Of a stretch of 32,000 nucleotides of DNA, positions 861 through 29,934 are shown piece by piece. Made by a program: the position numbers and the translations under genes. This stretch comes from Trichodesmium erythraeum IMS101 (GTDB lineage Bacteria > Cyanobacteriota > Cyanobacteriia > Cyanobacteriales > Microcoleaceae): positions 4,920,001-4,952,000 of the forward strand of contig NC_008312.1 of assembly GCF_000014265.1 (NCBI RefSeq), given 5' to 3'. The notes beneath the pieces were generated by a model, which worked only from the letters and a program-made list of their open reading frames with translations, had not been told where the DNA came from and searched no databases. Numbering within the stretch: the stretch's first letter is position 1; every line of letters starts with the position of its first letter.

Positions 861-2648
861 ATGTCTAATAGCTATATTTATGGTACTGGAGAAGACGATC
901 TGCTATATGGTACCGGAGGAAACGATAAGGCGTATGGAAGCTCCGGAAATGATATTATCGAAGGTAAAGGAGGTGATGATGAACTTTATGGTAATGGTGG
1001 GAATGACACAATTAAAGGAGAAGAAGGCGATGATACAGTTTTAGGTCATCCTGGAGATGACTCAATAGAAGGAAACGCAGGTGATGATAAGCTTTATGGT
1101 GGTGATGGGGATGACCTAGTCTCAGGGGGAGAAGGAAACGATATGCAGACTGGAGGAGGAGGAAACGATACCATAGAAGGAGGAGAAGGTGATGACAAAC
1201 TTTATGGAGGGCCTGATGATGACTTGATCAAGGGAGAAGACGGTCAAGATAAGCTTTATGGTAATGATGGGAATGACGCAATGGAAGGAGGTGCGGATGA
1301 TGACACAGTTTTAGGTCATGCTGGAGATGACTCAATAGAAGGAAATGCAGGTGATGATAAGCTTTATGGTGGTGATGGGGATGACCTAGTCTCAGGGGGA
1401 GAAGGAAACGATATGCAGACTGGAGGAGGAGGAAACGATACCATAGAAGGAGGAGAAGGTGATGACAAACTTTATGGAGGCCCTGATGATGACTTGATCA
1501 AGGGAGAAGACGGTCAAGATAAGCTTTATGGTAATGATGGGAATGACGCAATGGAAGGAGGTGCGGATGATGACACAGTTTTAGGTCATGCTGGAGATGA
1601 CTCAATAGAAGGAAATGCAGGTGATGATAAGCTTTATGGTGGTGATGGGGATGACCTAGTCTCAGGGGGAGAAGGAAACGATATGCAGACTGGAGGAGGA
1701 GGAAACGATACCATAGAAGGAGGAGAAGGTGATGACAAACTTTATGGAGGGCCTGATGATGACTTGATCAAGGGAGAAGACGGTCAAGATGAGCTTTATG
1801 GTAATGATGGGAATGACGCAATGGAAGGAGGTGCGGATGATGACACAGTTTTAGGTCATGCTGGAGATGACTCAATAGAAGGAAATGCAGGTGATGATTT
1901 ACTTTCTGGTGATTCTGGGGATGACGTAGTCTCAGGCGGAGAAGGAGAGGATATACTGTACGGAGGAGCAGGAAACGATGAACTTTATGGTGGTGATGAT
2001 AATGATACCATTGATGATGGTGGTGGGGATGACATACTAGAAGGAAATACGGGTAATGATATACTTCGTGGTCGTGGAGGTCAAGACGAGCTCATAGGAG
2101 GTGATGGTGATGACCTCATCATTAGTTATAGTGATGCAGGAGAACCTGAAATTGCCCAACAGACAAATGAATCTAAGGTTTATCCAGATCAACCCTTTTT
2201 TGAAGCTAATGATACTTTAACTGGAGGATCAGGGGCTGATACTTTCCTATTTAGACCGTTGATGAATGCCAAGCCTGAGATTATTGAGAAACACAATATG
2301 CACAATATGCACCAAGATATGCATAATATGAACTTGCATAAACAAATCGCTGGCGAAAATGGTTCAGTCCATGATCACTGGGTTGATAGTATTGGTGATG
2401 ATATCATCCTTGACTTTAATAGAAGTGAAGGGGATAAAATTGAGATTAAGGGTCATACAGTAAAAGTAGAAAAAATTGAAGAGCTTGATGATGGAAGTGG
2501 ATCTATTGTTCATTTAATTAGTGATCAAGGGGCTAATGGTGGAGCCCACCACCTAGATAAACTAGGAACAATTACTGTTTATGGTGATCTGGTTACAGAA
2601 TCAGATTTAATAGCAGATATCTTTGGGGATGGTGCTGGTATGGGTTGA
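861..2648 (+). CDS. RTX-type calcium-binding repeat protein (hemolysin-type GGxGxDx[LIV]x nonapeptides), probable type I secretion substrate
   Basis: 595-aa ORF with AAGGAG at 848-853, 7 nt before the ATG. Roughly 45 consecutive G-G-x-G-x-D-x-hydrophobic-x nonapeptides. No N-terminal signal peptide. The C-terminal non-repeat domain carries the D.I.DF....GDKI motif that typically follows RTX blocks. Confidence 0.9.
   Translation: MSNSYIYGTGEDDLLYGTGGNDKAYGSSGNDIIEGKGGDDELYGNGGNDTIKGEEGDDTVLGHPGDDSIEGNAGDDKLYGGDGDDLVSGGEGNDMQTGGGGNDTIEGGEGDDKLYGGPDDDLIKGEDGQDKLYGNDGNDAMEGGADDDTVLGHAGDDSIEGNAGDDKLYGGDGDDLVSGGEGNDMQTGGGGNDTIEGGEGDDKLYGGPDDDLIKGEDGQDKLYGNDGNDAMEGGADDDTVLGHAGDDSIEGNAGDDKLYGGDGDDLVSGGEGNDMQTGGGGNDTIEGGEGDDKLYGGPDDDLIKGEDGQDELYGNDGNDAMEGGADDDTVLGHAGDDSIEGNAGDDLLSGDSGDDVVSGGEGEDILYGGAGNDELYGGDDNDTIDDGGGDDILEGNTGNDILRGRGGQDELIGGDGDDLIISYSDAGEPEIAQQTNESKVYPDQPFFEANDTLTGGSGADTFLFRPLMNAKPEIIEKHNMHNMHQDMHNMNLHKQIAGENGSVHDHWVDSIGDDIILDFNRSEGDKIEIKGHTVKVEKIEELDDGSGSIVHLISDQGANGGAHHLDKLGTITVYGDLVTESDLIADIFGDGAGMG
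1036..1897 (+). repeat. 270-bp (90-aa, ten nonapeptides) tandem repeat, three full copies plus about 50 bp of a fourth, inside the RTX gene
   Basis: The string cagttttaggtcat recurs at 1036, 1306, 1576 and 1846. Copies differ at only a few bases (e.g. catcctgg vs catgctgg, gataagctt vs gatgagctt). Confidence 0.95.
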
Positions 2649-5464: not shown

Positions 5465-6214
5465 ATGAATGAGGACAAAATTACAATTAGTCATTTAGGA
5501 GTCCATTATCGTACCCTTGAGGCGTTGCGAAACATTACCCTAAAGATACAAGCAGGAAGGTTAACAGGTATTATTGGCCCTAATGGAGCAGGAAAAAGTA
5601 CTTTATTAAAAGGAATGCTGGGATTAATTCCGGTGAGTGGAGGTTCTGTAATCTACAATAACAAATCACTTCAGAAACAGTTAGGCAGAGTTGCCTATGT
5701 TCCTCAGCGATCGCAAATTGATTGGACTTATCCTGCGACTGTCTGGGATGTGGTAATGATGGGTCGAGTCCATCAGACTGGTTGGTTTTGTCGCTTTTCT
5801 AGGATGAGTCGCCAGATAGCATTGGAGGCATTGACAAGGGTGGGGATGGATAGTTATCGCGATCGCCCCATCGGTCAACTTTCTGGTGGTCAGCAACAAC
5901 GGGTTTTTTTAGCGCGGTCTTTAGCTCAGAAAGCAGATATTTTCTGTTTTGATGAGCCATTTGTTGGGGTTGATCAGAAGACTGAAAATATTATTTTTGA
6001 GATTTTTCACGAGTTAGCTAAAGCTGGAAAAGTTGTGATAGTTGTTAATCATGATTTGGGAAAATCTATTACTAATTTTGATGATTTGATTCTGTTAAAT
6101 AAAGAGTTAATTGCTGTTGGCAATCGACAAATTGTATTACAAGAAGAAAATTTGTATCGTGCTTATGGGGGTAAAGTAGGTTTCTTTTCGGAGTCCTTAA
6201 AGCAAGTTGCTTGA
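5465..6214 (+). CDS. mntA: Metal (Mn/Zn) ABC transporter ATP-binding protein
   Basis: Walker A GPNGAGKST, signature LSGGQQQR, Walker B IFCFDEP, H-loop VNHD. The size (249 aa) and divergent partner fit the MntA/ZnuC class. Confidence 0.85.
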   Translation: MNEDKITISHLGVHYRTLEALRNITLKIQAGRLTGIIGPNGAGKSTLLKGMLGLIPVSGGSVIYNNKSLQKQLGRVAYVPQRSQIDWTYPATVWDVVMMGRVHQTGWFCRFSRMSRQIALEALTRVGMDSYRDRPIGQLSGGQQQRVFLARSLAQKADIFCFDEPFVGVDQKTENIIFEIFHELAKAGKVVIVVNHDLGKSITNFDDLILLNKELIAVGNRQIVLQEENLYRAYGGKVGFFSESLKQVA

Positions 6215-6404
6215 ACGTTCTAGATTTTGTTTAGTAGGAAGAGCTTCTCACTAATTTTTTTGATTATGATCATATTTTTACTTGTTATATTATTTTTTAT
6301 ATTTAGTTTTTAACAAGTAATTATTGAAGCAATAACATCATTAACTTGATAAATTTATCTTTAAAATATTTATTTCAATTCAACTAAAATGTAAGGGATA
6401 CTTA

Positions 6405-7280
6405 TTAAATGCTTTTCTTTATATCAGATTTAGTTCTATCAATCTTTCCTTCTAAATCTGATTCTCCAATATGATTTTTACCTGTGTTATCAAAAACTTC
6501 CAAATGAGCAGATTTTCCATAATGTAGATTATCCACATACCAAAGATATCCTGTTTCTTTCTCTTCATAAATTGTCCTACCATCATATTGATTTTTAGTT
6601 CGTTTAAATCTATGAGTATCTTTTAGTATTGTTTGAGTATCTGTAGGTGGAGAGCTGGAAGATTCATCATAGTTTAACTGACTTAATTGACAACTTTTTT
6701 CCAACCAGTTTTGTAATCCAACTTTCTGATCAATACTATCTAATTGACTTAGATTTTCTGTATCATTATTTTTCACAATAGAGATAGAATTGCATTCTCT
6801 AATCTCCTGACTTAGACATTGAAAACAAGAATCTCTAAAATTAATTAATAAGTACTTTGAGTCTAAATTAATTAATTGTCTTTGTGCCGCTTCTGCTAAA
6901 GATGTATTTGTTGCATCTTTGTAATCTTCACCATCAATATAATCAAAATTATCTTGTTCAGAATGAATTCTTTCTTTTTGCCAATCCTTGGAATTGGCTT
7001 TATTACAGATAATACTGATAATTGACGTTTTTAAGCCTTTGTCTTTAATCTGATTTAAACTAGATTTAAAATTATTGCCTTTGATTGCTTCATAATTTTT
7101 AATAGCTTCAGTCGAGTAAGTTTTTATGCTTATATTTTTTGTGCTTATATGTTGTTTTTTTAATTTATTAATATCTTCAAAAATACTTTTGATAACTTTG
7201 GCCGTCTCTTCAAACTATTTTTAGGTATAGTATTGCTCTTGTAAAGACACTTCATTAATAAACATTTCAATTTTAATCAT
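6405..7280 (-). pseudogene. Disrupted gene with a C-terminal colicin E3-like cytotoxic (16S rRNase) domain
   Basis: The frame is open for 270 codons (7214 down to 6405). The only in-frame start upstream (ATG at 7280) is separated from it by TAA-AAA-TAG at 7215-7223. The C-terminus DGRTIYEEKETGYLWYVDNLHYGKSAHLEVFDNTGKNHIGESDLEGKIDRTKSDIKKSI aligns by eye with colicin E3 ...GRKIYEWDSQHGELEGYRASDGQHLGSFDPKTGNQLKGPDPKRNIKKYL. Confidence 0.5.
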
Positions 7281-7312
7281 TATTTTAAATCCCAAAAAGA
7301 CGTTCAAAATCT

Positions 7313-7708
7313 TTATCCATTTGAAAGATCTATAACTTCTTTTGTTATGTGAAAATAATATTTATTTGTAGAAACATCAATTATTTTATCTGATATCAAA
7401 ATACTAATGAAATATTGAAATAATGAAATACTCCGTGGAATTAGACTTGTTTTTGTTGATTGAATTTTCTGAATTACCTTTTTAGCTTTTTCTTTAATCT
7501 TTTTTTCTTCAACTACATTAATTAACAGACGATATAAGTTATCGCAAAAACGGCTCATATCTTTTGGATAAAGCTCATCTGGTATTTTTTTATCTTCAAA
7601 TAATTTATTTATTTCTTGAGCAAAATATTTTTTATGTTTAATTTCTTGATAACCATTATCTTCAATAACCTCAGAAGTTTTTTCAAAAGCAAGTATTAAT
7701 ATATCTAA
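7313..7708 (-). pseudogene. Decayed hypothetical gene immediately upstream of the E3-like gene on the same strand
   Basis: The 81-aa track ORF continues upstream in frame (LDILILAFEKTSEVIEDNGYQEIKHKKYFAQEINKLFEDKK...) to an in-frame TAA at 7709-7711. Further stops and frameshifts lie above that. No family recognised. Confidence 0.3.
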
Positions 7709-8159
7709 TTATTCAGCCGTTGCTTTAATTTGCGCAGCTAAAGATTATCTTTTTTAGGAATACTCATTGCTGAATAATCATCAAGTTTATCTATGCCCAA
7801 TCGAATTGTATACTAGTCACATCCAAATAGTAGGATAATATAATTTATACCTCCTCACCCCAGTTTGAGTGCTGCTATCGCAGTATAGCGACGACGCTCT
7901 TTTTCCGATCATGATTTATACAGTTTTTTCATTTATAGCTTTACTTTTTTAGGATAGGGACTTATAGAATTAATATAATTAGAATTTCAAATAATATAAC
8001 AATTAGTCTATAATTACTGTGTTGATTTTTGGCTCTTATTTAATTTTCATTCCTTCATCGGGTCAATTCTAGACTTATAAAAATAGTACAAGCCCACACC
8101 ATACTTAAGTTATTGTTGGGTCATTAACTATCCATTATCCATGATCAATTAATATTGTA

Positions 8160-8183
8160 GGGGGTTTGGAGACCAAACTCCCC
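8160..8183 (-). terminator. GC-rich hairpin just downstream of the futC stop codon
   Basis: GGGGGTTTGG-AGA-CCAAACTCCCC sits 12 nt from the TGA (8195-8197). It is the only GC-rich stem in an AT-rich spacer. There is no obvious U-tract. Confidence 0.4.
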
Positions 8184-8194
8184 ACCTATATCCA

Positions 8195-9331
8195 TCAAAA
8201 ATTCCTACTACCGACTAGATCAGAAGATTTTTCAGGCTTTTCTTCAGCTGTTGTAGGAAAAACTCGCAAGTTATCTTCAGCAATAGATACTTTTACTTTA
8301 ACTCCAATTTTTAATGCCACCTGTGGAGTAGTACGAGCAATTAACTCTTTTCCAGACTCAGTTTGTAAACAATAACGAAATTCACGACCCAAAAACTGGC
8401 GATCGCGAATCACTATACACCCCTCATTATCAGCTTTCAAAATCAAGTCTTCCTGACGGATCATCAACTCAAGACGATCAAACTCATCTAAACTATCAAT
8501 TTCCCCACCAAACACATTATTATTTGTCAACTCAAAAGCACCCACTTCCGTTTCCCAAACCTGGTCGTGACGATGTGCAGGCAAAAAATTAGCCTGAGTC
8601 ACAAACTCCGCCACAAACTTAGAAGCAGGTTCAGTATAAATATCCTTTGGTGTACCAAATTGTTCTACAGATCCAGCTCTCATAACTGCCACTCTGTCAG
8701 AAATAGCCATAGCCTCCTCCTGGTCATGAGTAACAATAATTCCCGAAGCACCTGCATTTTTAAGAATATCCCGTAATTCCTGGCGTAATCTAATCCTCAC
8801 CTGTACATCCAAGTTACTCAAAGGTTCATCCAATAACACCAAAGCTGGATTTGGCGCCAAAGCACGCGCCAAAGCTACTCGTTGCTGCTGACCTCCAGAC
8901 AACTCGTGGGGATAACGATTTTCTAGATCAGACAAACCTACCAACTCCAGAACATCTCTTACCTGATGATTAATTTGTGTGCTTGACTTTTTCCCAGAAT
9001 TATGTAATCCGAAAGCAATATTTTTGGCTACAGTCAGATGGGGAAACAAAGCATAATCTTGAAAGACCATACCAACATTACGTTTTTCCGGTACTATCCA
9101 ATCATGTTTACCAGCAACTAACCGGCCATTAATTGTCACAATACCTGACTGTGGTTCCTCAAATCCAGCAATTATTCTCAATAAAGTTGTTTTACCACAG
9201 CCTGAAGGTCCCAATAAGCCTAGTATATCTCCCTGGTATAGTGTTAAATTTACATTTTGGACAGCAGTGGTAGTACTCCGAGAAAATTTCTTGCTCACAC
9301 TCTCAAGATAGAGAATTACTGATTTGGTCAT
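8195..9331 (-). CDS. futC: Fe(III)-type ABC transporter ATP-binding protein with a C-terminal TOBE-like domain
   Basis: Walker A GPSGCGKTT, signature LSGGQQQR, Walker B LLDEP, H-loop THD. The C-terminal extension of about 130 aa is typical of the FbpC/PotA/FutC class. It is divergent from a double-domain Fe(III) permease gene. Confidence 0.85.
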   Translation of the reverse strand: MTKSVILYLESVSKKFSRSTTTAVQNVNLTLYQGDILGLLGPSGCGKTTLLRIIAGFEEPQSGIVTINGRLVAGKHDWIVPEKRNVGMVFQDYALFPHLTVAKNIAFGLHNSGKKSSTQINHQVRDVLELVGLSDLENRYPHELSGGQQQRVALARALAPNPALVLLDEPLSNLDVQVRIRLRQELRDILKNAGASGIIVTHDQEEAMAISDRVAVMRAGSVEQFGTPKDIYTEPASKFVAEFVTQANFLPAHRHDQVWETEVGAFELTNNNVFGGEIDSLDEFDRLELMIRQEDLILKADNEGCIVIRDRQFLGREFRYCLQTESGKELIARTTPQVALKIGVKVKVSIAEDNLRVFPTTAEEKPEKSSDLVGSRNF

Positions 9332-16287: not shown

Positions 16288-17985
16288 TAAGTGTTGCTCC
16301 TTGAGGGTAATAATAAATAAGTATTACTATCAAATATCAAAAAATTTTAAACAAAGGTAGGGTAAAGTCTTAGTTTGACACAATTCGATAAGAACTTTTA
16401 AATTTTTCGTTACATCTATTGACTAAAAGCAATTTATATAAGATTATGTATATCTTTTAAACTTAATATTTTGTGATGAATTAAGTAGATGATAAATTTT
16501 TCTGATAAATGGAAAAGTTAATATTGTTTTATGGAAGTCAAGCCTCTTCTTATTGCCCCCCGGAGAAAGTCAACTCTCTACTTACCCTTTTGTTATAAAT
16601 ATCTTTAGTTCATCGGAGACAAAAAGTGTATTGAATAATAATTTTTTTGAGGACTTAAAATAGTTTTGCCTAGCTACTATAGTTTTTCTCTCTACTCCCC
16701 TTTTAACTCGCGGTTAGATTTCCGGTAAGGTTTTCAGAAGTTCCTGAGCAGAAATAGCCTGTATAGACCAGGCTAATTTCCAGACTATAACTGGAGAATA
16801 TTTGTAATACTAAGGGTAAAAAAAAGAATGCTTTTCTCGGGTAAAGCTTCAATTATTAACAGACTATTTCTAAACAAAACCTTAAGCTTTTGTAGGAAGG
16901 CTTAGGTAGACTATAGATAGGAAAAGTCGTATATTTTAAAGAGAAAGTACTTTTAACTCCTAGACTTACTCTACCAATCAAAGTTATTAAAGTACTCAAG
17001 GTATAGTAGATACTAATCATTATCTAACCTATCATTATCTTGAACATAAAGTTGTCTTGAATATGTTTAATTAGATCTAGGTATAACAATACAAATATTC
17101 CTATTTATAACCCTCTGATAAATGTCTAATAAATCAAAGAAGATATTTAAGAACTAGAACCTAAGGAGTGACTAAGAAAGGCTAAAAAAAAATTGTAAAG
17201 TTTCTTCTAGATTCTGAAAATATGGTATTATAATAGGACTAACTTATGGTTTACAATAATCATAAAAATAAATAATTATATTTGTAATAAAAACTCTTAC
17301 CTAACTTAAGAACAAGCATTTTATTTTCAGTAAATTTGACCTTGATTTTGCTGAGACTAATACTAGTAAAGGTAAAATAATTGTCGAAGCTACCACGGTA
17401 TTAGAATCAGAAAAAGTGCTGATGATACAAAGCATCATACAAAACATCATAAAAATTAAGAATTTATCTTTAATATTAAGGGGAAAGTAAACAACTGAAA
17501 TTACATTAGTAATACAAGTAATAGATTTTATATCTATTAATTAATTTCCCGAAAATCTGTGATCCTATTAAATCACATAAAATATCAGAATATTGGCTCA
17601 AAAAGTTATGAGTAAAGTAGGAAAAATATTAAATTTTACTGTTAATCTATTGAGGCTAAATATTAACAGAGACTAGATAAGCTAACAGAAATATTGCTAA
17701 CATTTCATATATCACATCCCAGTTAGCTAAATATACTAGTCCGAAAAAAAATCAGGGGTAGAAATAGTTTTATGCTTTCATTATGGTGAGAGTTAGGTAT
17801 TGCTATGACATTTTGGGAAGTTTTTATAAATAATTTAGGTATAAAATTCCATTATTTCCAATAAATAATATTCATACTATAAGTCAGAATTAATATTCTA
17901 ATTATAACTGCTGGCTGTTGACTAAACCTATGACTATCTAATGTAAAATTTTAAAATTATGATTGAGTATTTTTTTCTGTCTTAA

Positions 17986-18924: not shown

Positions 18925-19339
18925 CGTATTTACTAACTATTTTAACAATAATACAAATTTTTTTTATGATTGTCAACCTAAGCATAATTAATATAATTTA
19001 TAATCAAGGAATAAAGATTATATAGAGTAAAATTACTTTTCATATTAATTATTAATAATCAGTCTATTTATTCTGATAAAAACCTATTTTTTGTATTTGG
19101 TATTTCTTCCTTGAAAGCAAGCATCATAATTTTAGGTACAATATTATAAATGTCATTATTTCTAGTTTCCTGTATTTTATAATTTTCAGAATAAATAAAT
19201 TACGTTCCAGGCAGTTTATCAGAAAAAAATTTAGTTATTTTGAAAAGTTTATTAACTGTTAATACGACTTTCAATACCCCTATAAATTACAGAATAGAGT
19301 GGTTAATAAAATGCCTTAACTTAGAAGTAAAAGTTATAA

Positions 19340-19712
19340 AATTGCGGTTTTTAAATTACTGAATTTAGTTGATAAATGAAGTATCTAAGGTTACCTTGCT
19401 TGATTTATAAATAATCTATTGTTAAAAATGATGCTTGATTAGGTTATGAACCAGATGTAATTGTTGTCAGCCGAAATTACTTTTAAAATTAACTAGGATG
19501 GGAAAAAAATATACTTTTTTTTAAATTACTGAATGTGGTTAATAAAATGCCTTAACTTATTAGTTAATCAATCAACAATCTAAGATTATTTTGCTTTATC
19601 TACTAAATAATCTATTATTAAAAATGATAGTTGATTAGGCTATAAAGCAGATGTAATTGTTGTCAGTCGAAATTACTTTGAAAATGAACCAGGTGGGGAA
19701 AAATAATATACT
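19340..19712. repeat. Intergenic tandem direct repeat, about 197 bp x 2
   Basis: taaataatctatt(g/a)ttaaaaatgat(g/a)(c/g)ttgattagg...cagatgtaattgttgtcag(c/t)cgaaattactt...ggg(a/g)aaaaa...atatac occurs at about 19408-19515 and 19604-19712. Upstream parts (ttaaattactgaat, ggttaataaaatgccttaactta) are also shared but rearranged. Confidence 0.7.
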
Positions 19713-20562
19713 TTAATAAATGGTTAGTCAATTAAGTTAGTAATTGAAATTATAAGTAGTAATTGGAGGAATAATTATGCCTTTAAATTAGATGCTTATC
19801 AAACTATAGGTATTGAATAATATTGGATTTGTAGATAATTTTGGATTAGATATAAGAGAATTTATCGGTTATGCCAAAACCCTAATTTTTAAAGTTAATA
19901 TCTTGAAAATAGAAATTATAAATCTAATCAATTTCAGGAAAACTACTTATTTAATCTTTTAATTTTCCTAAATCATAATTGATTACAGCACAATTTTTAT
20001 ATAATAAAAACACTAATTTATAATAAAAATTGTCTTTAAATTTTCATGCTTTTATGGCAGTTATAATTCAGTATTCAGGAGACTATAGTTAGACAAAAAT
20101 TAGCCTATAAAAAAAATTACAATTTCATGGAATTGAGAAAATCAAGTTACTAAAAAAAAAGATTTTTAGCCGAGATTGTCTCAAACATAACTGTTAGAAG
20201 CTATTGGTCATAAAAAATAAAATTTACACTAGACTTAAGGAGACAAATACCAATTAATAAAACTGACCAAAAAATTAAATATAAAATTTGTATTTCTTGG
20301 CGCTTTAGCTACTCTATAAAGTAGAGATTATTTGGTGAAAAAAATAAAGTACAGCAGGAATTGACAATACCATTTATCAACAACTTTCTATCCTGAGATA
20401 TGAAGTAGGGGAAGGACATACAAAGGTAAGTTATTAATAATTGATACTATAAGGCCTGAGTATGGGAGGTCTGGGAGAAAAATCTATTTTTATTAATGCC
20501 GCTTGTGTATCTTCGAGCTCCTGTACTCCCCAGGCTCCCTTTACTTTTCCTTACTCCTATAA

Positions 20563-21042
20563 CTAATTATCACGATCGCGCATCTGCTTCAACAACTCCA
20601 CTACATCTTTATGACCTTCTGAACCTACCCAGAGGAAAGGTGTCCATTTGTTGTGATTTTTTGCCCTAATATTTGCTTCCCTTTCTAGTAAAGTTTGCAC
20701 TATACCAACATGACCACTACTAGCAGCAGTCATCAAAGCAGTCATACCAAAATTAGTAGCAGCATTAATATCAGCACCGACATCTAACAATAGTTGCAAA
20801 ATTTCCTGGTTGTCACCAGCAGCAGCACCCATAAAAGGAACCCAACCATCAATGTCATTGCCATTGACATCTGAACCAGTAACTAATAATTTTTTCACGA
20901 TCTCTACATGGCCAGTTTCAGCAGCAACAATTCAAGCAGTTGAACCCTCTGAGTCTTGAGCGTTGACATCCACACCCCCACTTAGCAAAGTTTCAACTTG
21001 AGCAACATCTCCAACTTTAATGGCATCTATTAATTCTGTCAC
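20563..21042 (-). pseudogene. Ankyrin-repeat protein with an in-frame TGA at codon 37
   Basis: GTG at 21042 is preceded by AGGAG (complement of 21051-55). The translation MTELIDAIKVGDVAQVETLLSGGVDVNAQDSEGSTA-TGA-IVAAETGHVEIVKKLLVTGSDVN... runs in the same frame into the 111-aa track ORF. The stop (20932-20934) replaces the conserved Leu of the ankyrin G-x-T-A-L motif. Confidence 0.8.
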
Positions 21043-21200
21043 TTAATTTTCTCCTATAATTTAGTTAGTATATTAGTTCATAATACCGTTTTACTAAAAG
21101 TTAGCTCCTCCTTATTCCTTTAAGGGGAAAGTCAAAAGTTGCAATAACATTTTAGGTGGTGGTGCAAAGTGAATTAGTATAAATTAAAAAAGTTTACCTC

Positions 21201-22649
21201 ATGCCTTCCATCATGGAAAAAGTTGATATTGTCATCCTCTCAAATGGTCCGGGAGAATTAGTTACCTGGGTAAGACCTGTTGTACAAGAGTTGCGACAAC
21301 AGGCGAATATTGATATGAGAATTTCTCTTGTTCTCTCCCCTTGTCCTCATGCTACGGGAAAAGAAGTAGCGATCGCTCGTTCTTATCCAGAAGTAGACCG
21401 GGTACAACCACCTGAATTTTTTTGGCGGTTTTTGCTCTGGGGTAAGACGGCAGAAAATTGGCATTGGTATCCTCAAGGAGTAGTTTTATTTCTGGGAGGT
21501 GACCAGTTTTTTACTGTTGTGGTGGGAAAACGTTTGGGTTATCGCACTGTTATCTATGCTGAGTGGGATGCTAGATGGTGGCGTTGGGTAGATAAATTTG
21601 GCGGGATGAAACCAGAAGTTTTTGCTCAGGTTCCTCCCAAATATGCTGATAAATTTACTGTTGTGGGAGATTTGATGAATGAGGTCAGAAGTAGCAATAA
21701 ACTCAGAGCTCAGGACTCAGAATTCAGGACTCAGAATTCAGAATTAGTAATAAATTCAGAACTCAGAACCCAGAACTCAGAATTCAGAATTAGTAATGAA
21801 CTTGCATCTGAAAACTTAGAAGTGAGAAGTAATTTTTCTAACCCTTCAAAAGGGGAGAGTAGTGTGGAGTTAATTGGGTTATTGCCTGGGTCGAAACCTA
21901 CTAAGTTGTCTTTAGGTGTACCTTTAACTTTAGCGATCGCTCAACATCTCCATAAAATTCGTCCGCAAACTAAATTTATAATTCCGGTAGCTCCCACCCT
22001 TGACTTAAATACTTTAGCTAATTTTGCTGACCCGGAAAAAAATCCAGCAATTGAAAAAATGGGGGGTGTGGGAGCAAAATTATTAACGCCTTCTTTGAAT
22101 AGGAAGAAAACAGATAGTAGAAAACAGGGAGCATATTTTGAAATTCAAAATTCTCATCTGGTGACAACTGGAGGTTTAAAAATAGAATTAATCACCCGGA
22201 ACCCTGCTTATGACCTACTTTCTAAATGTCGTCTTTGTCTGACTACTGTCGGTGCGAATACTGCTGAGTTAGGTTCCCTGGCAATACCGATGATAGTTTT
22301 GTTACCCACTCAAGAATTAGATGTTATGAGAGCGTGGGATGGTTTACCTGGGTTACTTGCAAATTTGCCAGTGGTTGGCGCTGCTTTTGCTACCGGAATT
22401 AATTGGTTAGTGCTCCGTAAGGGACAACTGTTTGCTTGGCCAAATATTTGGGCAAAACAGGAAATTGTGCCTGAGTTAGTAGGGAAATTAAAACCCGAAG
22501 TTGTGGCAGAGTTGGTTTTAGAGTTTCTGACTCATCCAGAGAAGTTGGCAGAAATGCGCGATCGCCTCTGTAATGTGAGGGGTAAACCAGGGGCAGCACA
22601 AAAGTTAGCAGAAATTGTATTATCGTTGAGCTATGGTAGTCAAATATAA
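21201..22649 (+). CDS. Lipid-A-disaccharide synthase-related protein (cyanobacterial LpxB-like family) carrying a low-complexity insert
   Basis: The N-terminal VILSNGPGELVTWVRPV and C-terminal TTVGANTAELGSLAIPMIV...WPNIWAKQEIVPEL are characteristic of the LpxB-related family. An insert of about 60 aa (RSSNKLRAQDSEFRTQNSELVINSELRTQNSEFRISNE...) interrupts it. Confidence 0.8.
   Translation: MPSIMEKVDIVILSNGPGELVTWVRPVVQELRQQANIDMRISLVLSPCPHATGKEVAIARSYPEVDRVQPPEFFWRFLLWGKTAENWHWYPQGVVLFLGGDQFFTVVVGKRLGYRTVIYAEWDARWWRWVDKFGGMKPEVFAQVPPKYADKFTVVGDLMNEVRSSNKLRAQDSEFRTQNSELVINSELRTQNSEFRISNELASENLEVRSNFSNPSKGESSVELIGLLPGSKPTKLSLGVPLTLAIAQHLHKIRPQTKFIIPVAPTLDLNTLANFADPEKNPAIEKMGGVGAKLLTPSLNRKKTDSRKQGAYFEIQNSHLVTTGGLKIELITRNPAYDLLSKCRLCLTTVGANTAELGSLAIPMIVLLPTQELDVMRAWDGLPGLLANLPVVGAAFATGINWLVLRKGQLFAWPNIWAKQEIVPELVGKLKPEVVAELVLEFLTHPEKLAEMRDRLCNVRGKPGAAQKLAEIVLSLSYGSQI
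21701..21798 (+). repeat. Heptanucleotide tandem repeat (YTCAGRA/CAGAAYY, about 13 units) inside the LpxB-like CDS
   Basis: Split by sevens: actcaga gctcagg actcaga attcagg actcaga attcaga attagta ataaatt cagaact cagaacc cagaact cagaatt cagaatt agtaatg. Confidence 0.85.
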
Positions 22650-25575: not shown

Positions 25576-26556
25576 TCATCCATTATTAGCTAGCCAGTTT
25601 TCTAAGTCTGCTATTATTGCTAAATCAAAAATTTCATCACCTAAAATATCTAACTTTTCCAAAGATAATTGCTCTATCTGAGTCTGAACTTCTGGAGGCA
25701 CTTCCCCAAACTTCCGGCGAATTTGACGTTTAACTAATATTCTCATTCCTTCCTCTCTTCCAATTCCAATGCCTTCCTCCCGTCCAATTCCAATACCTTC
25801 CTCTCTTCCAATTCCAATACCTTCCTCCCGCCCAATTTCTATTCCTTCCTTTCTGGCTAAACTAATTTGTCCTTTCTTATCTCTAATCAACTTTTCTTGT
25901 TGCTCTAATTCCTCTAATTCTTCATTACTTAAGTTAGCCATATTTGCTATATTTAATGCTGACTCTATTTCTGATACCTCTTCTAAAGAGGAAGGTATTA
26001 CTTCTAAATTTGGAGCCGAGCTAATAAAATATATCCACTTATCACTGAGGGTTTCTAATACTGACAATTCTTTCTTGAATTTGGGTAATTCTACAAACAT
26101 TAAAGTTAATTCATCTTGGTAATTAAACAACTCTGTCTCTTCTTTAAATCGGAATTTAGTAATCATTTTATCTGTGTTTTCAAATAAAACAAAATCGGCG
26201 ATTGTTAAAGCTACAAAAGGTGTCAACATCATATAACCTTGCCCTACCTCTAATTGATTTCCATAAGCTTTAGCTAGATTATAAATTACTCGTTTTTCAA
26301 AATCTTCTACGTTTAATACTTGCATTTCAATAATCACAGTAGAACCATTATCTAAAACTGCTTTTACATCTAAATAAGTCTCTTTAATAGTGTTCGTAAC
26401 TCCAGGATTATAAGGATTAATTATTTCTAGAGATTGAATAATATTCTGATTATTATAAACTATAGCATTAAGAAAGCTAATGAGAATATTTTGACTGTGA
26501 ATAGAACCAAATATTTTTTTAAAAGCAAAGTCGGTTTTAGGGCTAATAAATTTCAT
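25576..26556 (-). CDS. Rpn/YhgA-like PD-(D/E)XK nuclease-family protein with C-terminal DUF4351-like domain, copy 1 (short repeat tract)
   Basis: The N-terminal ISPKTDFAFKKIFG...YLDVKAV...VIIEMQV matches the PDDEXK_2/TIGR01784 (putative transposase/invertase) core. The C-terminal RQIRRKFGEVPPEVQTQIEQLSLEKLDILGDEIFD...LENWL matches the DUF4351 pattern. It has 4 EGI(G/E)IGRE units. Confidence 0.85.
   Translation of the reverse strand: MKFISPKTDFAFKKIFGSIHSQNILISFLNAIVYNNQNIIQSLEIINPYNPGVTNTIKETYLDVKAVLDNGSTVIIEMQVLNVEDFEKRVIYNLAKAYGNQLEVGQGYMMLTPFVALTIADFVLFENTDKMITKFRFKEETELFNYQDELTLMFVELPKFKKELSVLETLSDKWIYFISSAPNLEVIPSSLEEVSEIESALNIANMANLSNEELEELEQQEKLIRDKKGQISLARKEGIEIGREEGIGIGREEGIGIGREEGIGIGREEGMRILVKRQIRRKFGEVPPEVQTQIEQLSLEKLDILGDEIFDLAIIADLENWLANNG
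25747..25854 (-). repeat. Coding 24-bp VNTR, copy 1 (4 units plus a partial)
   Basis: tccaattccaat(g/a)ccttcc(tcccg/tctct) units run phase-exact from 25759, and the first unit in gene order is an EGIEIGRE variant. Confidence 0.95.
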
Positions 26557-26699
26557 AGTTATATATTATTTTGCTGAACTAGTATAATTTATTTTATACT
26601 ATTTCATCATAATTAAAAAGCGATCGACACTTTTTCCGAGAATTATATAGAAAAATAGAGAAAAAAAAGACTCTTTAACTATCAATTATTCATTATCAA

Positions 26700-27848
26700 T
26701 CATCCATTATTAGCTAGCCAGTTTTCTAAGTCTGCTATTATTGCTAAATCAAAAATTTCATCACCTAAAATATCTAACTTTTCCAAAGATAATTGCTCTA
26801 TCTGAGTCTGAACTTCTGGAGGCACTTCCCCAAACTTCCGGCGAATTTGACGTTTAACTAATATTCTCATTCCTTCCTCTCTTCCAATTCCAATGCCTTC
26901 CTCCCGTCCAATTCCAATACCTTCTTCTCTTCCAATTCCAATACCTTCTTCTCTTCCAATTCCAATACCTTCTTCTTTTCCAATTCCAATACCTTCTTCT
27001 CTTCCAATTCCAATACCTTCTTCTCTTCCAATTCCAATACCTTCTTCTTTTCCAATTCCAATACCTTCTTCTCTTCCAATTCCAATACCTTCTTCTCTTC
27101 CAATTCCAATACCTTCCTCCCGCCCAATTTCTATTCCTTCCTTTCTGGCTAAACTAATTTGTCCTTTCTTATCTCTAATCAACTTTTCTTGTTGCTCTAA
27201 TTCCTCTAATTCTTCATTACTTAAGTTAGCCATATTTGCTATATTTAATGCTGACTCTATTTCTGATACCTCTTCTAAAGAGGAAGGTATTACTTCTAAA
27301 TTTGGAGCCGAGCTAATAAAATATATCCACTTATCACTGAGGGTTTCTAATACTGACAATTCTTTCTTAAATTTGGGTAATTCTACAAACATTAAAGTTA
27401 ATTCATCTTGGTAATTAAACAACTCCGTCTCTTCTTTAAATCGGAATTTAGTAATCATTTTATCTGTGTTTTCAAATAAAACAAAATCAGCGATTTTTAA
27501 AGCTACAAAAGGTGTCAACATCATATAACCTTGCCCTACCTCTAATTGATTTCCATAAGCTTTAGCTAGATTATAAATTACTCGTTTTTCAAAATCTTCT
27601 ACGTTTAATACTTGCATTTCAATAATCACAGTAGAACCATTATCTAAAACTGCTTTTACATCTAAATAAGTCTCTTTGATAGTGTTCGTAACTCCAGGAT
27701 TATAAGGATTAATTATTTCTAGAGATTGAATAATATTCTGATTATTATAAACTATAGCATTAAGAAAGCTAATGAGAATATTTTGACTGTGAATAGAACC
27801 AAATATTTTTTTAAAAGCAAAGTCGGTTTTAGGGCTAATAAATTTCAT
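26700..27848 (-). CDS. Rpn/YhgA-like PD-(D/E)XK nuclease-family protein, copy 2 (long repeat tract, R/K variants)
   Basis: Same as copy 1 apart from 11 octapeptide units (two of them EGIGIGKE) and T118K. Confidence 0.85.
   Translation of the reverse strand: MKFISPKTDFAFKKIFGSIHSQNILISFLNAIVYNNQNIIQSLEIINPYNPGVTNTIKETYLDVKAVLDNGSTVIIEMQVLNVEDFEKRVIYNLAKAYGNQLEVGQGYMMLTPFVALKIADFVLFENTDKMITKFRFKEETELFNYQDELTLMFVELPKFKKELSVLETLSDKWIYFISSAPNLEVIPSSLEEVSEIESALNIANMANLSNEELEELEQQEKLIRDKKGQISLARKEGIEIGREEGIGIGREEGIGIGREEGIGIGKEEGIGIGREEGIGIGREEGIGIGKEEGIGIGREEGIGIGREEGIGIGREEGIGIGREEGMRILVKRQIRRKFGEVPPEVQTQIEQLSLEKLDILGDEIFDLAIIADLENWLANNG
26871..27146 (-). repeat. Coding 24-bp VNTR, copy 2 (11 units plus a partial)
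   Basis: 168 bp (7 units) longer than copy 1. The unit order on the + strand is A B B B' B B B' B B C', where B' ends in ttcttt and encodes K instead of R. Confidence 0.95.
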
Positions 27849-27995
27849 AGTTATATATTTATTATTTTGCTGAACTAGTATAATTTATTTTATACTATTT
27901 CATCATAATTAAAAAGCGATCGACACTTTTTCCGAGAATTATATAGAAAAATAGAGAAAAAAAAGACTCTTTAATTATCAATTATTCATTATCAA

Positions 27996-29144
27996 TCATC
28001 CATTATTAGCTAGCCAGTTTTCTAAGTCTGCTATTATTGCTAAATCAAAAATTTCATCACCTAAAATATCTAACTTTTCCAAAGATAATTGCTCTATCTG
28101 AGTCTGAACTTCTGGAGGCACTTCCCCAAACTTCCGGCGAATTTGACGTTTAACTAATATTCTCATTCCTTCCTCTCTTCCAATTCCAATGCCTTCCTCC
28201 CGTCCAATTCCAATACCTTCTTCTCTTCCAATTCCAATACCTTCTTCTCTTCCAATTCCAATGCCTTCCTCCCGTCCAATTCCAATACCTTCTTCTCTTC
28301 CAATTCCAATACCTTCTTCTCTTCCAATTCCAATGCCTTCCTCCCGTCCAATTCCAATACCTTCTTCTCTTCCAATTCCAATACCTTCTTCTCTTCCAAT
28401 TCCAATACCTTCCTCACGCCCAATTTCTATACCTTCCTTTCTGGCTAAACTAATTTGTCCTTTCTTATCTCTAATCAACTTTTCTTGTTGCTCTAATTCC
28501 TCTAATTCTTCATTACTTAAGTTAGCCATATTTGCTATATTTAATGCTGACTCTATTTCTGATACCTCTTCTAAAGAGGAAGGTATTACTTCTAAATTTG
28601 GAGCCGAGCTAATAAAATATATCCACTTATCACTGAGGGTTTCTAATACTGACAATTCTTTCTTAAATTTGGGTAATTCTACAAACATTAAAGTTAATTC
28701 ATCTTGGTAATTAAACAACTCCGTCTCTTCTTTAAATCGGAATTTAGTAATCATTTTATCTGTGTTTTCAAATAAAACAAAATCGGCGATTGTTAAAGCT
28801 ACAAAAGGTGTCAACATCATATAACCTTGCCCTACCTCTAATTGATTTCCATAAGCTTTAGCTAGATTATAAATTACTCGTTTTTCAAAATCTTCTACGT
28901 TTAATACTTGCATTTCAATAATCACAGTAGAACCATTATCTAAAACTGCTTTTACATCTAAATAAGTCTCTTTAATAGTGTTCGTAACTCCAGGATTATA
29001 AGGATTAATTATTTCTAGAGATTGAATAATATTCTGATTATTATAAACTATAGCATTAAGAAAGCTAATGAGAATATTTTGACTGTGAATAGAACCAAAT
29101 ATTTTTTTAAAAGCAAAGTCGGTTTTAGGGCTAATAAATTTCAT
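27996..29144 (-). CDS. Rpn/YhgA-like PD-(D/E)XK nuclease-family protein, copy 3 (long repeat tract)
   Basis: Same as copy 1 apart from 11 octapeptide units, all encoding EGIGIGRE after the first EGIEIGRE. Confidence 0.85.
   Translation of the reverse strand: MKFISPKTDFAFKKIFGSIHSQNILISFLNAIVYNNQNIIQSLEIINPYNPGVTNTIKETYLDVKAVLDNGSTVIIEMQVLNVEDFEKRVIYNLAKAYGNQLEVGQGYMMLTPFVALTIADFVLFENTDKMITKFRFKEETELFNYQDELTLMFVELPKFKKELSVLETLSDKWIYFISSAPNLEVIPSSLEEVSEIESALNIANMANLSNEELEELEQQEKLIRDKKGQISLARKEGIEIGREEGIGIGREEGIGIGREEGIGIGREEGIGIGREEGIGIGREEGIGIGREEGIGIGREEGIGIGREEGIGIGREEGIGIGREEGMRILVKRQIRRKFGEVPPEVQTQIEQLSLEKLDILGDEIFDLAIIADLENWLANNG
28167..28442 (-). repeat. Coding 24-bp VNTR, copy 3 (11 units plus a partial)
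   Basis: The unit order on the + strand is A B B A B B A B B C, which is a 72-bp super-repeat. Confidence 0.95.
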
Positions 29145-29229
29145 AGTTATCTATTATTTTGCTGAACTAGTATAATTTATTTTACACTATTTCATTATAA
29201 TTAAAAAGCGATCGCTTAGGATTTAATTG

Positions 29230-29932: not shown

Positions 29933-29934
29933 GA

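What the first reader, a model, noticed from the sequence alone, without database searches (positions are those of the whole stretch)
6405..7280. Colicin E3-like rRNase toxin domain in a cyanobacterial gene, interrupted by two in-frame stops and with no visible immunity gene
The last ~60 residues (GRTIYEEKETGYLWYVDNLHYGKSAHLEVFDNTGKNHIGESDLEGKIDRTKSDIKKSI) can be aligned by eye to the colicin E3 catalytic domain (GRKIYEWDSQHGELEGYRASDGQHLGSFDPKTGNQLKGPDPKRNIKKYL). Candidates for the catalytic Asp, His and Glu of E3 are retained in the pattern D..H....LE.[YF], followed by G..H[IL]G..D. Colicin E3 cleaves 16S rRNA in the decoding centre, so such domains are normally lethal without a cognate immunity protein encoded immediately downstream. 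Here only 190 bp of ORF-free AT-rich DNA follows, before the end of mntA. The frame is open for 270 codons, but its only upstream start codon is cut off by TAA-AAA-TAG at 7215-7223. A GTG at 6776 could still express a free 123-aa toxin domain. The N-terminal ~200 aa match nothing I recognise, and there is no obvious secretion or delivery domain. Either this is a dead polymorphic toxin, or it is a small stand-alone E3-like RNase with an unconventional partner, possibly the decayed upstream gene at 7313-7708.
Basis: partly seen in the sequence, partly recalled or inferred. Interest (0 to 1): 0.65.

Follow-up and report, generated by a model that had tools for sequence, protein, structure and literature searches.

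The report
Decayed Menshen defence gene, E3-like RNase
This is the broken last gene (nsnC) of a known three-gene anti-phage system called Menshen. Its two partner genes were removed by a 2.8-kb deletion, and its toxin end does look like the ribosome-cutting domain of colicin E3. That explains why there is no immunity gene and why the find is fairly ordinary.

Summary
Window 6405-7280 (-) is one frame broken by TAA (7221-7223) and TAG (7215-7217), with 190 ORF-free bases before the convergent mntA-like gene.

The gene is not a polymorphic toxin. It is nsnC, the effector of the Menshen anti-phage system (PADLOC NsnC, E=3e-92). Intact 286-aa orthologues follow nsnA (DUF262) and nsnB (ABC ATPase with DUF3696) in about 50 genomes.

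A contig about 99% identical to the window carries intact nsnABC at the same site. The window lacks 2,787 bp of it (junction 7323/7324), and its two stops replace Gln and Glu. Two independent assemblies carry the identical decayed allele, so it is real. The "decayed upstream gene" is a fragment of an unrelated RelA/SpoT-like gene.

The colicin E3 resemblance is supported:
- The AlphaFold model of the last 91 residues (pLDDT 96) hits colicin E3 RNase structures first, at probability 1.00.
- Profile-profile alignment (P=3e-4) pairs Asp, His and Glu, invariant in 171 homologues, with E3 D510, H513 and E517.
- Pfam's Cytotoxic model does not match.

No immunity gene is conserved, which fits the published prediction that NsnB restrains NsnC. 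Verdict: a pseudogenised remnant of a known system, with a modestly new E3-type annotation of its effector.

The parts
6405..7280 (-). nsnC pseudogene, the effector gene of a Menshen anti-phage system. It is 291 codons including two premature stops. Intact orthologues are 286 aa.
   Evidence: PADLOC NsnC model PDLC03889 scores E=3.4e-92 on the window's own translation and 4.4e-103 on intact orthologue P0001. There are 55 homologues, most about 286 aa.
7215..7223 (-). TAA-AAA-TAG: two nonsense codons, TAA at 7221-7223 and TAG at 7215-7217.
   Evidence: The intact alleles L003/L076, L004, L006, L072, L073 and L075 have C at 7223 and G at 7217, so most read CAA and all read GAG. These are among 9 substitutions private to the window allele.
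6681..7265 (-). N-terminal, NsnC-N type region (called 'inactive PIN-like' in the literature). It is hypervariable and mosaic among alleles in this population.
   Evidence: PADLOC NsnC model PDLC03896 matches residues 1-183 of P0001, E=4.7e-11. Most polymorphic sites among alleles lie in 6800-7299. The fold could not be confirmed because pLDDT was below 50.
6408..6680 (-). C-terminal 91-residue colicin-E3-like (Tox-ColE3 type) RNase domain. Its sequence is identical to that of intact allele L003.
   Evidence: AlphaFold2 gave pLDDT 96.1 and pTM 0.88. Foldseek PDB top five are colicin E3 RNase chains at probability 1.00, TM up to 0.67. hhalign P=3.2e-4. There are no mismatches to L003 across 6405-6810.
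6498..6533 (-). Codons of the predicted catalytic residues: Asp 6531-6533, His 6522-6524, His 6504-6506 and Glu 6498-6500 (motif VDNLH....HLEVF).
   Evidence: D, H and E are 171/171 conserved. They align with E3 D510, H513 and E517 in hhalign and hmmsearch. Those E3 residues are reported as essential in PMC4905994.
7285..7323 (-). The last 12 codons plus the stop of nsnB (QMDKDFERLFGI*). This is all that remains of the ABC-ATPase gene.
   Evidence: Window 7323-7285 matches L003 5312-5350, the 3' end of the 416-aa NsnB gene (PADLOC NsnB, E=1.5e-121).
7323..7324 (.). Deletion junction. 2,787 bp present in close relatives are absent here: the 3' end of the RelA/SpoT-like remnant, the spacer, all of nsnA, and nsnB except its last 39 nt. 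No microhomology is evident at the junction.
   Evidence: blastn places window 9500-7324 on L003 347-2524 (99.3%) and window 7323-4001 on L003 5312-8634 (99.1%). L006 shows the same break points.
7325..7771 (-). Stop-containing remnant of a RelA/SpoT-like gene (residues 168-316 of 333). It belongs to a neighbouring DUF262 + RelA/SpoT-like gene pair.
   Evidence: tblastn of the intact L006 2194-3195 product gives 89% identity over 149 aa. That product matches Pfam RelA_SpoT PF04607, E=7.9e-10.

Best explanation
The feature is the pseudogenised effector gene nsnC of a Menshen anti-phage system, in a Trichodesmium-like marine cyanobacterium.

**Intact state (shown in close relatives at this exact site).** Three co-oriented genes sit between two ABC-transporter loci:
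- nsnA, a ParB/DUF262 protein proposed to sense DNA;
- nsnB, an ABC ATPase with a DUF3696 tail, proposed to transduce the signal;
- nsnC, the effector.

NsnC has an N-terminal, fast-evolving NsnC-N domain. Published AlphaFold3 models predict that this domain docks between the DUF3696 tails of an NsnB dimer. Its C-terminal 91 residues form a nuclease domain.

**Inferred mechanism.** This C-terminal domain has the colicin E3 / Tox-ColE3 fold and an invariant Asp-x-x-His...Glu catalytic set. My inference is that, when phage DNA is sensed, NsnB releases or activates NsnC. NsnC then cuts RNA, most likely 16S rRNA at the decoding centre as colicin E3 does. That would stop translation and abort the infection. 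On the published model's prediction, self-protection comes from NsnB restraint, not from an immunity protein, which would explain why no immunity gene exists.

**State in this window (shown).** The system is dead.
- A 2,787-bp deletion removed nsnA, almost all of nsnB, and presumably any promoter upstream of nsnA (inferred; no promoter was mapped).
- nsnC carries two nonsense codons at codons 20 and 22.
- The order of these events is unknown.
- Losing NsnB could have freed the toxin and so selected for the nonsense mutations. That idea is speculation.
For: **Identity**
- PADLOC hits: NsnC E=3.4e-92 on the window translation; NsnA E=1.8e-113 and NsnB E=1.5e-121 on the upstream genes of the intact allele.
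- The nsnA-nsnB-nsnC order is found in about 50 of 65 genome loci, and in L001, L003 and L004.

**Decay**
- L003 is 99.1-99.3% identical to the window on both flanks and has 2,787 extra bp at window 7323/7324.
- L006 (Trichodesmium sp. MAG_R02) shows the same break points.
- The stops replace Gln and Glu.
- An identical decayed allele occurs in L071 and L074. Intact alleles occur at the same site in L072, L073, L075 and L076.
- A second, independent deletion allele fuses nsnB to the 3' end of nsnC in L077.

**E3-like domain**
- AlphaFold2 pLDDT 96.1.
- Foldseek ranks 1-5 are colicin E3 RNase at probability 1.00. Rank 6 is CdiA-CT of E. cloacae. From rank 7 on, probabilities are mostly 0.11 or below (highest 0.23).
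- hhalign score 25.2, P=3.2e-4, against a maximum of 17.4 in 31 controls.
- A targeted hmmsearch aligns the full domain to an Arsenophonus E3-family toxin, E=2.4e-4 in a database of 30.
- D, H and E are 171/171 conserved. The second His (HLG) is 157/171. This fits the Tox-ColE3 signature 'R, Dxx[HK], E, H' of PMC3482391.

**No immunity gene**
- No Im3 homologue and no conserved downstream ORF in 63 loci.

**Mechanistic framework**
- Taken from PMC12065111.
Against: - Pfam PF09000 (Cytotoxic) matches none of 48 family members, even at E of 1 or less.
- A family profile finds nothing among PDB sequences at E of 10 or less.
- Foldseek E-values are only 0.013-0.1, and hhalign probability is 39%. 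E3 homology therefore rests on several weak-to-moderate signals that agree, not on one decisive score.
- I could not make a residue-level structural superposition of the active site.
- No RNase activity, RNA target or anti-phage activity has been measured for this NsnC subfamily.
- The published Menshen survey leaves open whether NsnC cuts phage or host RNA.
- The N-terminal fold was not confirmed (pLDDT below 50).
Confidence: 0.85

Rival explanations
1. The 123-aa ORF from GTG 6776 is still expressed as a free E3-like RNase. It would act as a small stand-alone toxin or a domesticated RNase with some other partner.
For: The ORF exists. The C-terminal 406 bp show no difference from the intact allele L003, while the 5' half shows 24.
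Against: - Zero changes in 406 bp is not unusual at the flank divergence of about 0.2-0.7%, which predicts 1-3 changes (my estimate).
- Most 5' differences are polymorphisms shared with intact alleles. They are not decay that spared the 3' end.
- The deletion removed everything upstream of nsnA, where an operon promoter would be expected, although no promoter was mapped. Promoter-like matches in the region are no more frequent than in shuffles, 11 against 13.7.
- GTG 6776 lies inside a conserved strand of the N-domain (SIVKNND) and is not a start in any orthologue.
- The ORF would lack the NsnC-N region that is predicted to dock on NsnB.
- No candidate partner or immunity gene is present.
Confidence: 0.05
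2. This is a dead polymorphic or bacteriocin-type toxin of the colicin E3 family that has lost its immunity gene.
For: The C-terminal domain is E3-like. Tox-ColE3 domains are reported in polymorphic toxins, including some in cyanobacteria (PMC3482391).
Against: - There is no secretion, receptor-binding, RHS or filamentous-haemagglutinin region. The protein is only 286 aa.
- The whole length matches NsnC models.
- Orthologues are always the third gene after nsnA and nsnB.
- The best 150 of 631 domain homologues are almost all 250-320 aa proteins, or shorter fragments, with the domain at the C-terminus.
- No Im3-like or any other conserved downstream gene was found.
Confidence: 0.02
3. The gene is an nsnC remnant, but its C-domain only resembles E3 superficially. 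It would be another small beta-rich RNase, for example a BECR-type or Ntox21-type domain as catalogued for other NsnC proteins. Its target would be mRNA or tRNA rather than the 16S decoding centre.
For: - Direct HMM searches against PF09000 and PDB sequences fail.
- Foldseek E-values are weak.
- The published survey lists nine BECR families, including one related to Ntox21, and does not mention ColE3 in its main text.
- The E3 E515 position is His in 162 of 171 members. There are two insertions relative to E3.
Against: - E3 chains are the only confident structural matches. Colicin D and other BECR folds score probability 0.07 or less.
- The E3 catalytic triad aligns and is invariant.
- The family fits the Tox-ColE3 motif, not the Ntox21 motif K,[DS]xDxxxH,K,RxG[ST],RxxD.
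- Even so, a shared fold does not prove a shared RNA target.
Confidence: 0.25
4. The in-frame stops and the deletion are sequencing or assembly artefacts, and the gene is intact in the organism.
For: The 5' end is AT-rich and low in complexity. Five private changes are clustered within 33 bp.
Against: Two independent assemblies from different projects are 100% identical over 2,086 bp, including the stops and the junction. Nine further similar places were reported.
Confidence: 0.01

Closest known systems
Menshen anti-phage system, NsnC effector (described bioinformatically by Li et al., NAR 2025, PMC12065111; discovery by Millman et al. 2022 is from my own knowledge)
   Same: - Full-length match to PADLOC NsnC models.
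- Orthologues are the third gene after a DUF262 NsnA and an ABC-ATPase/DUF3696 NsnB.
- Two-part build: a variable N-domain and a nuclease C-domain.
- No immunity gene.
- Domain shuffling: the same C-domain is joined to unrelated N-domains in Bacteroidales loci.
- Sporadic pseudogenisation was anticipated by the paper.
   Different: - This copy is dead: the partners are deleted and there are two nonsense codons.
- The C-domain is of the colicin E3 (Tox-ColE3) type. The main text of the survey does not name this among its 15 effector families. I could not see the figures or supplements, so it may be listed there under another name.
Colicin E3 / cloacin DF13 / pyocin S6 rRNase domain (Pfam PF09000 'Cytotoxic'; Tox-ColE3 of Zhang et al. 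2012)
   Same: - Predicted fold: top five PDB matches at probability 1.00.
- The GRxIY...DxxH...LE[FY]...HLG..D..G motif order.
- Invariant Asp, His and Glu at the positions of D510, H513 and E517.
- A basic residue near the C-terminus at the position of R545.
   Different: - No hit to PF09000.
- About 15-19% identity.
- A 9-residue hairpin insertion before the Asp and a 4-residue insertion after the His.
- His instead of Glu at the E515 position.
- Cytoplasmic effector of a defence operon, not an exported bacteriocin.
- No Im3-type immunity protein.
- RNA target untested.
CdiA-CT of Enterobacter cloacae (Ntox21; PDB 4NTQ), a 16S rRNase
   Same: Sixth-best structural match. It is cited by the Menshen survey as related to one NsnC C-domain family.
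   Different: The structural match is weaker (probability 0.57, TM 0.42-0.49). The Ntox21 motif [DS]xDxxxH is not present. It is delivered between cells with a CdiI immunity protein.
PARIS (AriA/AriB), Septu (PtuA/PtuB) and Gabija (GajA): ABC-ATPase-controlled nuclease defence systems
   Same: NsnB matches AriA, GajA and PtuA models. The logic is the same: a toxic nuclease is held or regulated by an ABC ATPase instead of an antitoxin (PMC12065111).
   Different: Menshen adds a separate DUF262 sensor. Its effector is an RNase-type domain, not a Toprim or HNH DNase.

Membership tests
Menshen NsnC | Significant match to NsnC profile models | tested here: met
   PDLC03889 scores E=3.4e-92 on the window translation. 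Three further NsnC models also match.
Menshen NsnC | Encoded immediately downstream of nsnA (ParB-DUF262) and nsnB (ABC ATPase + DUF3696) on the same strand | tested here: met
   Met for the intact alleles at the same site (L003, L004, L006, L072) and for about 50 other loci. In the window itself only the last 39 nt of nsnB survive, so the window holds a remnant, not a working system.
Menshen NsnC | N-terminal inactive-PIN-like domain | tested here: inconclusive
   The N-region matches the N-part of another NsnC model (PDLC03896, E=4.7e-11). The AlphaFold model of residues 1-190 is low confidence, with pLDDT mostly below 50, so a PIN-like fold was not verified.
Menshen NsnC | C-terminal nuclease or effector domain | tested here: met
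   A confident 91-residue domain with the E3 RNase fold and invariant D, H and E.
Menshen NsnC | Confers phage resistance together with NsnA and NsnB | not testable with these tools
   This needs phage challenge of a strain carrying the intact cyanobacterial operon.
Colicin E3 'Cytotoxic' domain (Pfam PF09000) | Score above the Pfam gathering threshold | tested here: not met
   No PF09000 hit at E of 10 or less for the window protein, or at E of 1 or less for 48 family members. True E3 relatives all carry PF09000.
Colicin E3 / Tox-ColE3 fold | [quoted passage not shown] | tested here: met
   Foldseek ranks 1-5 are 4udm_B, 2b5u_A, 1e44_B, 1jch_A and 4v5k_AY at probability 1.00, TM 0.56-0.67 for the isolated RNase-domain chains. 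E-values are 0.013-0.098.
Colicin E3 / Tox-ColE3 fold | Conserved signature R, Dxx[HK], E, H (E3 D510, H513, E517 and the HLG histidine) | tested here: met
   hhalign and hmmsearch pair D50, H53 and E61 with D510, H513 and E517. Conservation is 171/171 for each, R35 is 153/171 and H70 is 157/171. This is sequence alignment only. No 3-D superposition of side chains was made.
Colicin E3 / Tox-ColE3 fold | Cognate immunity gene (Im3/Imm-Cloacin or Imm45) immediately downstream | tested here: not met
   No Im3 homologue in the window or in any of 78 loci. No downstream ORF is conserved across 63 loci.
Colicin E3 / Tox-ColE3 fold | Cleaves 16S rRNA between A1493 and G1494 | not testable with these tools
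   A biochemical assay is required.
Polymorphic toxin / bacteriocin | N-terminal secretion, receptor-binding, translocation or repeat (RHS/FilH) region that delivers the toxin | tested here: not met
   There are no Pfam or NCBIfam domains of this kind. The protein is 286 aa and its N-region is of the NsnC type.
Ntox21 (CdiA-CT, E. cloacae) | Ntox21 fold and motif K,[DS]xDxxxH,K,RxG[ST],RxxD | tested here: inconclusive
   4ntq_A is only the sixth structural hit (probability 0.57). No Pfam Ntox21 hit was returned. By inspection the family has DxxH rather than DxDxxxH. No profile-profile test against Ntox21 was run because I had no sequences for it.

The most novel reading that the evidence does not exclude
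A large subfamily of Menshen effectors may carry a true colicin-E3-type decoding-centre rRNase. The subfamily has 631 clusters at 50% identity and occurs in cyanobacteria, Bacteroidales, Campylobacterota and others. On this reading, a domain known only as an exported inter-bacterial toxin with a tight immunity protein has been recruited as an intracellular abortive-infection effector. It would be silenced by docking on an ABC ATPase. This gives the mechanistically unsolved Menshen system a concrete, testable target: the host 16S rRNA A-site. The assignment is not stated in the main text of the only dedicated Menshen study.
Probability: 0.35. Interest if true: 0.5.

Novelty: new member of a known kind. 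Interest (0 to 1): 0.25.

Why it matters
For the window itself it matters little. This is one more eroded defence locus in a genome already rich in non-coding DNA.

Two by-products have some value.

1. **A testable target for one Menshen subfamily.** If the intact effector is a colicin-E3-type rRNase held in check by an ATPase rather than an immunity protein, Menshen gains a specific prediction: ribosome inactivation at the decoding centre. The known uses of the E3 fold would also extend from bacteriocins and contact-dependent toxins to phage defence.

2. **A natural record of defence-system loss.** The Trichodesmium-like population carries at least three allelic states at one site: intact nsnABC, the deletion of nsnA-nsnB plus nonsense mutations, and an nsnB::nsnC fusion deletion. 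This could be followed in metagenomes against phage pressure.

Tried and rejected
- **Direct profile searches.** The 269-aa and 123-aa translations gave no credible hit in Pfam, NCBIfam or PDB sequences. The best hits were Formyl_trans_N at E=0.079 and a Plasmodium protein at E=0.006, both judged noise. A 20-sequence family profile found nothing among PDB sequences at E of 10 or less.
- **Full-length AlphaFold model.** Mean pLDDT was 61, with the N-terminal 190 residues below 50. The inactive-PIN assignment therefore could not be checked.
- **Relaxed selection sparing the toxin domain.** I considered this as the cause of the excess of differences in the 5' half of nsnC. It is rejected. Only 9 substitutions are private to the window, and 55 other sites are polymorphisms shared with intact alleles.
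- **The 7313-7708 ORF as partner or antitoxin.** Rejected. It is the 3' half of a RelA/SpoT-like gene. A weak ParE_like Pfam hit (E=0.11) is noise.
- **Promoter and terminator scan** of 6200-8250: no more matches than in shuffled sequence.
- **Rfam scan** of the whole window: nothing.
- **Beck et al. 2014 (PMC4016183)** is not held, so the Ntox21-E3 comparison rests on the Foldseek row and on Zhang et al. 2012.
- **Supplements of the Menshen paper** are not held. I could not find out what name, if any, that study gives this C-domain family.
Full report
**1. The observation**

Window 6405-7280 on the minus strand reads as one frame, MIKIEMFINEVSLQEQYYT*K*FEET...DIKKSI*. The TAA is at 7221-7223 and the TAG at 7215-7217, followed by 269 open codons. 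The first canonical start after the stops is GTG 6776, giving a 123-aa ORF. The 190 bp between the stop codon and the convergent ABC-ATPase ORF at 5465-6214 hold no ORF. The description is therefore correct.

**2. What the gene is**

A search with the conceptual translation found 55 homologues. Most are 284-293-aa hypothetical proteins from cyanobacteria such as Okeania, Geminocystis, Coleofasciculus, Scytonema, Cylindrospermum and Microcoleus. The best are 94% and 88% identical. In the alignment the window's two stops sit where every intact protein has Gln and Glu in ...YSTQKEF....

Two hits were fusion products with an AAA_15/AAA_21/DUF3696 ATPase, which pointed to the upstream neighbour. 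Gene context confirmed it. In Geminocystis NIES-3708 and in two metagenome contigs, the gene is third in a co-oriented trio:
- a DUF262/GmrSD_N protein (about 377 aa);
- an ABC-type ATPase with DUF3696 (416-469 aa);
- this protein.

PADLOC models name the three NsnA (E=1.8e-113), NsnB (E=1.5e-121) and NsnC (E=4.4e-103). These are the components of the Menshen anti-phage system. The window's own translation scores E=3.4e-92 on the same NsnC model.

A scan of one genome per species returned 65 loci. About 50 show the nsnA-nsnB-nsnC order. Most are cyanobacterial, but Parabeggiatoa, Aminicenantes, Campylobacteraceae and Bacteroidales are also represented. In the Bacteroidales loci only the C-terminal about 75 residues match, which indicates domain shuffling.

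**3. What happened in this genome**

Contig L003 is 99.3% identical to window 9500-7324 and 99.1% identical to window 7323-4001. It has 2,787 additional bases between those two blocks. The extra DNA holds all of nsnA and all of nsnB except its last 39 nt. Those 39 nt survive as window 7285-7323 (QMDKDFERLFGI*). No microhomology is visible at the junction. Trichodesmium sp. MAG_R02 (L006), the closest named genome, has the intact operon at the same place with the same break points. The window therefore most likely comes from a Trichodesmium-like cyanobacterium.

The decayed allele is real. Assemblies L071 (GCA_018457135.1) and L074 are identical to the window over 2,086 bp, including the junction and both stops. 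L072, L073, L075 and L076 carry intact alleles next to an identical MntA-like protein. A further allele (L077) has a different deletion that fuses nsnB codon about 257 to the last 30 codons of nsnC. Comparable internal-deletion remnants occur in other cyanobacteria: L050, L052, L058, L061 and L066. Erosion of this system is therefore recurrent.

**4. The 5' cluster of differences**

Twenty-four of the 29 mismatches to L003 in the 3.3-kb downstream block fall in the 5' half of nsnC. None fall in the last 406 bp. Comparison with six intact alleles shows that only nine substitutions are private to the window:
- 7237, 7228, 7223, 7217 and 7205;
- 7015, 7011, 7006 and 6997.

This set includes both nonsense changes. 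The other differences are polymorphisms shared in mosaic fashion with intact alleles. The N-terminal domain is thus the fast-evolving part in all lineages, as reported for NsnC-N domains (PMC12065111). The clean 3' half is not evidence of continued selection on a free toxin domain.

**5. The 'decayed upstream gene'**

Window 7325-7771 matches residues 168-316 of a 333-aa protein at 89% identity. That protein is intact in L006 (2194-3195) and carries a RelA_SpoT domain (PF04607, E=7.9e-10). In L006 it is preceded by a second DUF262 gene (PF03235, E=7.3e-20). In the window the frame contains stops, and its 3' end was removed by the same 2,787-bp deletion. The annotated-looking 81-aa ORF at 7313-7558 is a chimera that reads across the junction. 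It is a neighbour's remnant, not a partner of the RNase.

**6. Is the C-terminus colicin-E3-like?**

Direct HMM tests are negative.
- No PF09000 hit for the window protein or for any of 48 family members.
- No PDB-sequence hit for a family profile.

More sensitive tests are positive and agree with one another.
- **Structure.** AlphaFold2 on the last 91 residues with 28 aligned sequences gave pLDDT 96.1 and pTM 0.88. Foldseek against 350,542 PDB chains ranked five colicin E3 RNase chains first (probability 1.00, TM 0.56-0.67, E 0.013-0.098). The E3-like CdiA-CT of Enterobacter cloacae followed (probability 0.57). From rank 7 on, probabilities are mostly 0.11 or below, with 0.23 the highest. The full-length model gave the same top six.
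- **Profile-profile.** hhalign of 171 C-domains against 30 E3-family domains scored 25.2 (P=3.2e-4, probability 39%). The alignment was GRxIY / D-x-x-H / LE[FY] / HLG..D..G. A reversed E3 profile and 30 column-shuffled ones scored at most 17.4, with P of 0.013 or worse.
- **Targeted HMM search.** A search of the 30 E3 domains with the NsnC-C profile aligned the whole domain to an Arsenophonus E3-family toxin (E=2.4e-4 for 30 targets). It made the same Asp, His and Glu pairing.
- **Conservation.** The paired residues are 171/171 conserved. The HLG histidine is 157/171 and the GR arginine 153/171.

D510, H513 and E517 are the residues reported as essential in colicin E3 (PMC4905994). The pattern R, Dxx[HK], E, H is the published Tox-ColE3 signature (PMC3482391).

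I conclude that the domain is a divergent member of the E3 fold with an E3-like active site. It falls outside the Pfam family as currently modelled. Its RNA target remains an inference.

**7. Why there is no immunity gene, and how the system should work**

No Im3 homologue exists in the window or in any fetched locus. Across 63 loci no downstream same-strand ORF is conserved beyond close relatives.

The only dedicated study of Menshen (PMC12065111) proposes this division of labour:
- NsnA senses phage DNA;
- NsnB forms a GajA-like tetramer whose paired DUF3696 tails clamp the NsnC N-domain;
- ATP binding or hydrolysis activates or releases NsnC, as in PARIS and Septu.

Under that model the ATPase plays the role of the immunity protein. 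For this subfamily I infer translational shut-off by rRNA cleavage. This step is not shown.

**8. Comparison with what is known**

Menshen and the polymorphic nature of NsnC are published. The main text of that survey lists nine BECR families (one related to Ntox21, the E. cloacae rRNase), two Toprim families, PB-PLD1, DUF4160, PB-UF1 and a DUF2103-like family. It never mentions ColE3. Its figures and supplements were not available to me, so this family may be catalogued there under another name.

The window feature is thus a new, dead member of a known kind. The explicit E3-type assignment of its effector is at most a modest refinement.

**9. Verdict**

- Observation: confirmed.
- Interpretation: partly supported. 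The E3-like domain is supported; the polymorphic-toxin, stand-alone-toxin and upstream-partner ideas are not.
- Interest: low to moderate, 0.25.

Noticed in passing
L006 1092-3195; L007 228-2313; remnant at window 7325-7771: Directly upstream of Menshen in Trichodesmium sp. MAG_R02 and Okeania sp. SIO3I5 lies a second co-oriented pair. It consists of a DUF262 protein (365 aa) and a 333-aa RelA/SpoT-like nucleotidyltransferase, with a weak PADLOC PDC-S33 hit (E=4e-7). This could be a separate, uncharacterised two-gene defence module. It is split by a stop or frameshift in Okeania and reduced to a fragment in the window and in L003.
   Followed up: partly
L077 692-1555 (protein P0055); also P0054, L050, L052, L058, L063, L066: Independent internal deletions fuse nsnB, or nsnA, to the 3' part of nsnC in other Trichodesmium-like alleles and in other cyanobacteria. 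Menshen loci of this type seem to erode repeatedly by deletion.
   Followed up: partly
window 7205-7237 and 6997-7015: The nine substitutions private to the decayed allele are tightly clustered: five within 33 bp, including both nonsense changes, and four within 19 bp. There is no obvious mutational bias. Possible causes are short gene-conversion tracts from an unsampled allele or a multi-nucleotide mutation event. This remains unexplained.
   Followed up: partly
window 25576-29144 (-): Three tandem paralogues of 326, 382 and 382 aa, each with PDDEXK_2 (transposase-like nuclease, E about 1e-49) and DUF4351 domains. Two of them carry a 173-aa antisense ORF. The strongly negative GC skew coincides with this region.
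   Followed up: partly
window 861-2648 (+): A 595-aa protein made almost entirely of RTX calcium-binding nonapeptide repeats (HemolysinCabind, 16 stretches, E=2.6e-95). This explains the high GC content and GC skew at 1001-2000.
   Followed up: partly
window 16300-17985, 18925-21200, 29145-32000: Long AT-rich stretches (GC 0.23-0.33) hold no ORF of 120 aa or more, and the whole window has no Rfam match. This low coding density fits a Trichodesmium-like genome. The stretches may hide further gene remnants like the one studied here.
   Followed up: no
window 21201-22649 (+): A 482-aa ORF with no Pfam match at E of 1e-5 or less. It was not examined further.
   Followed up: no
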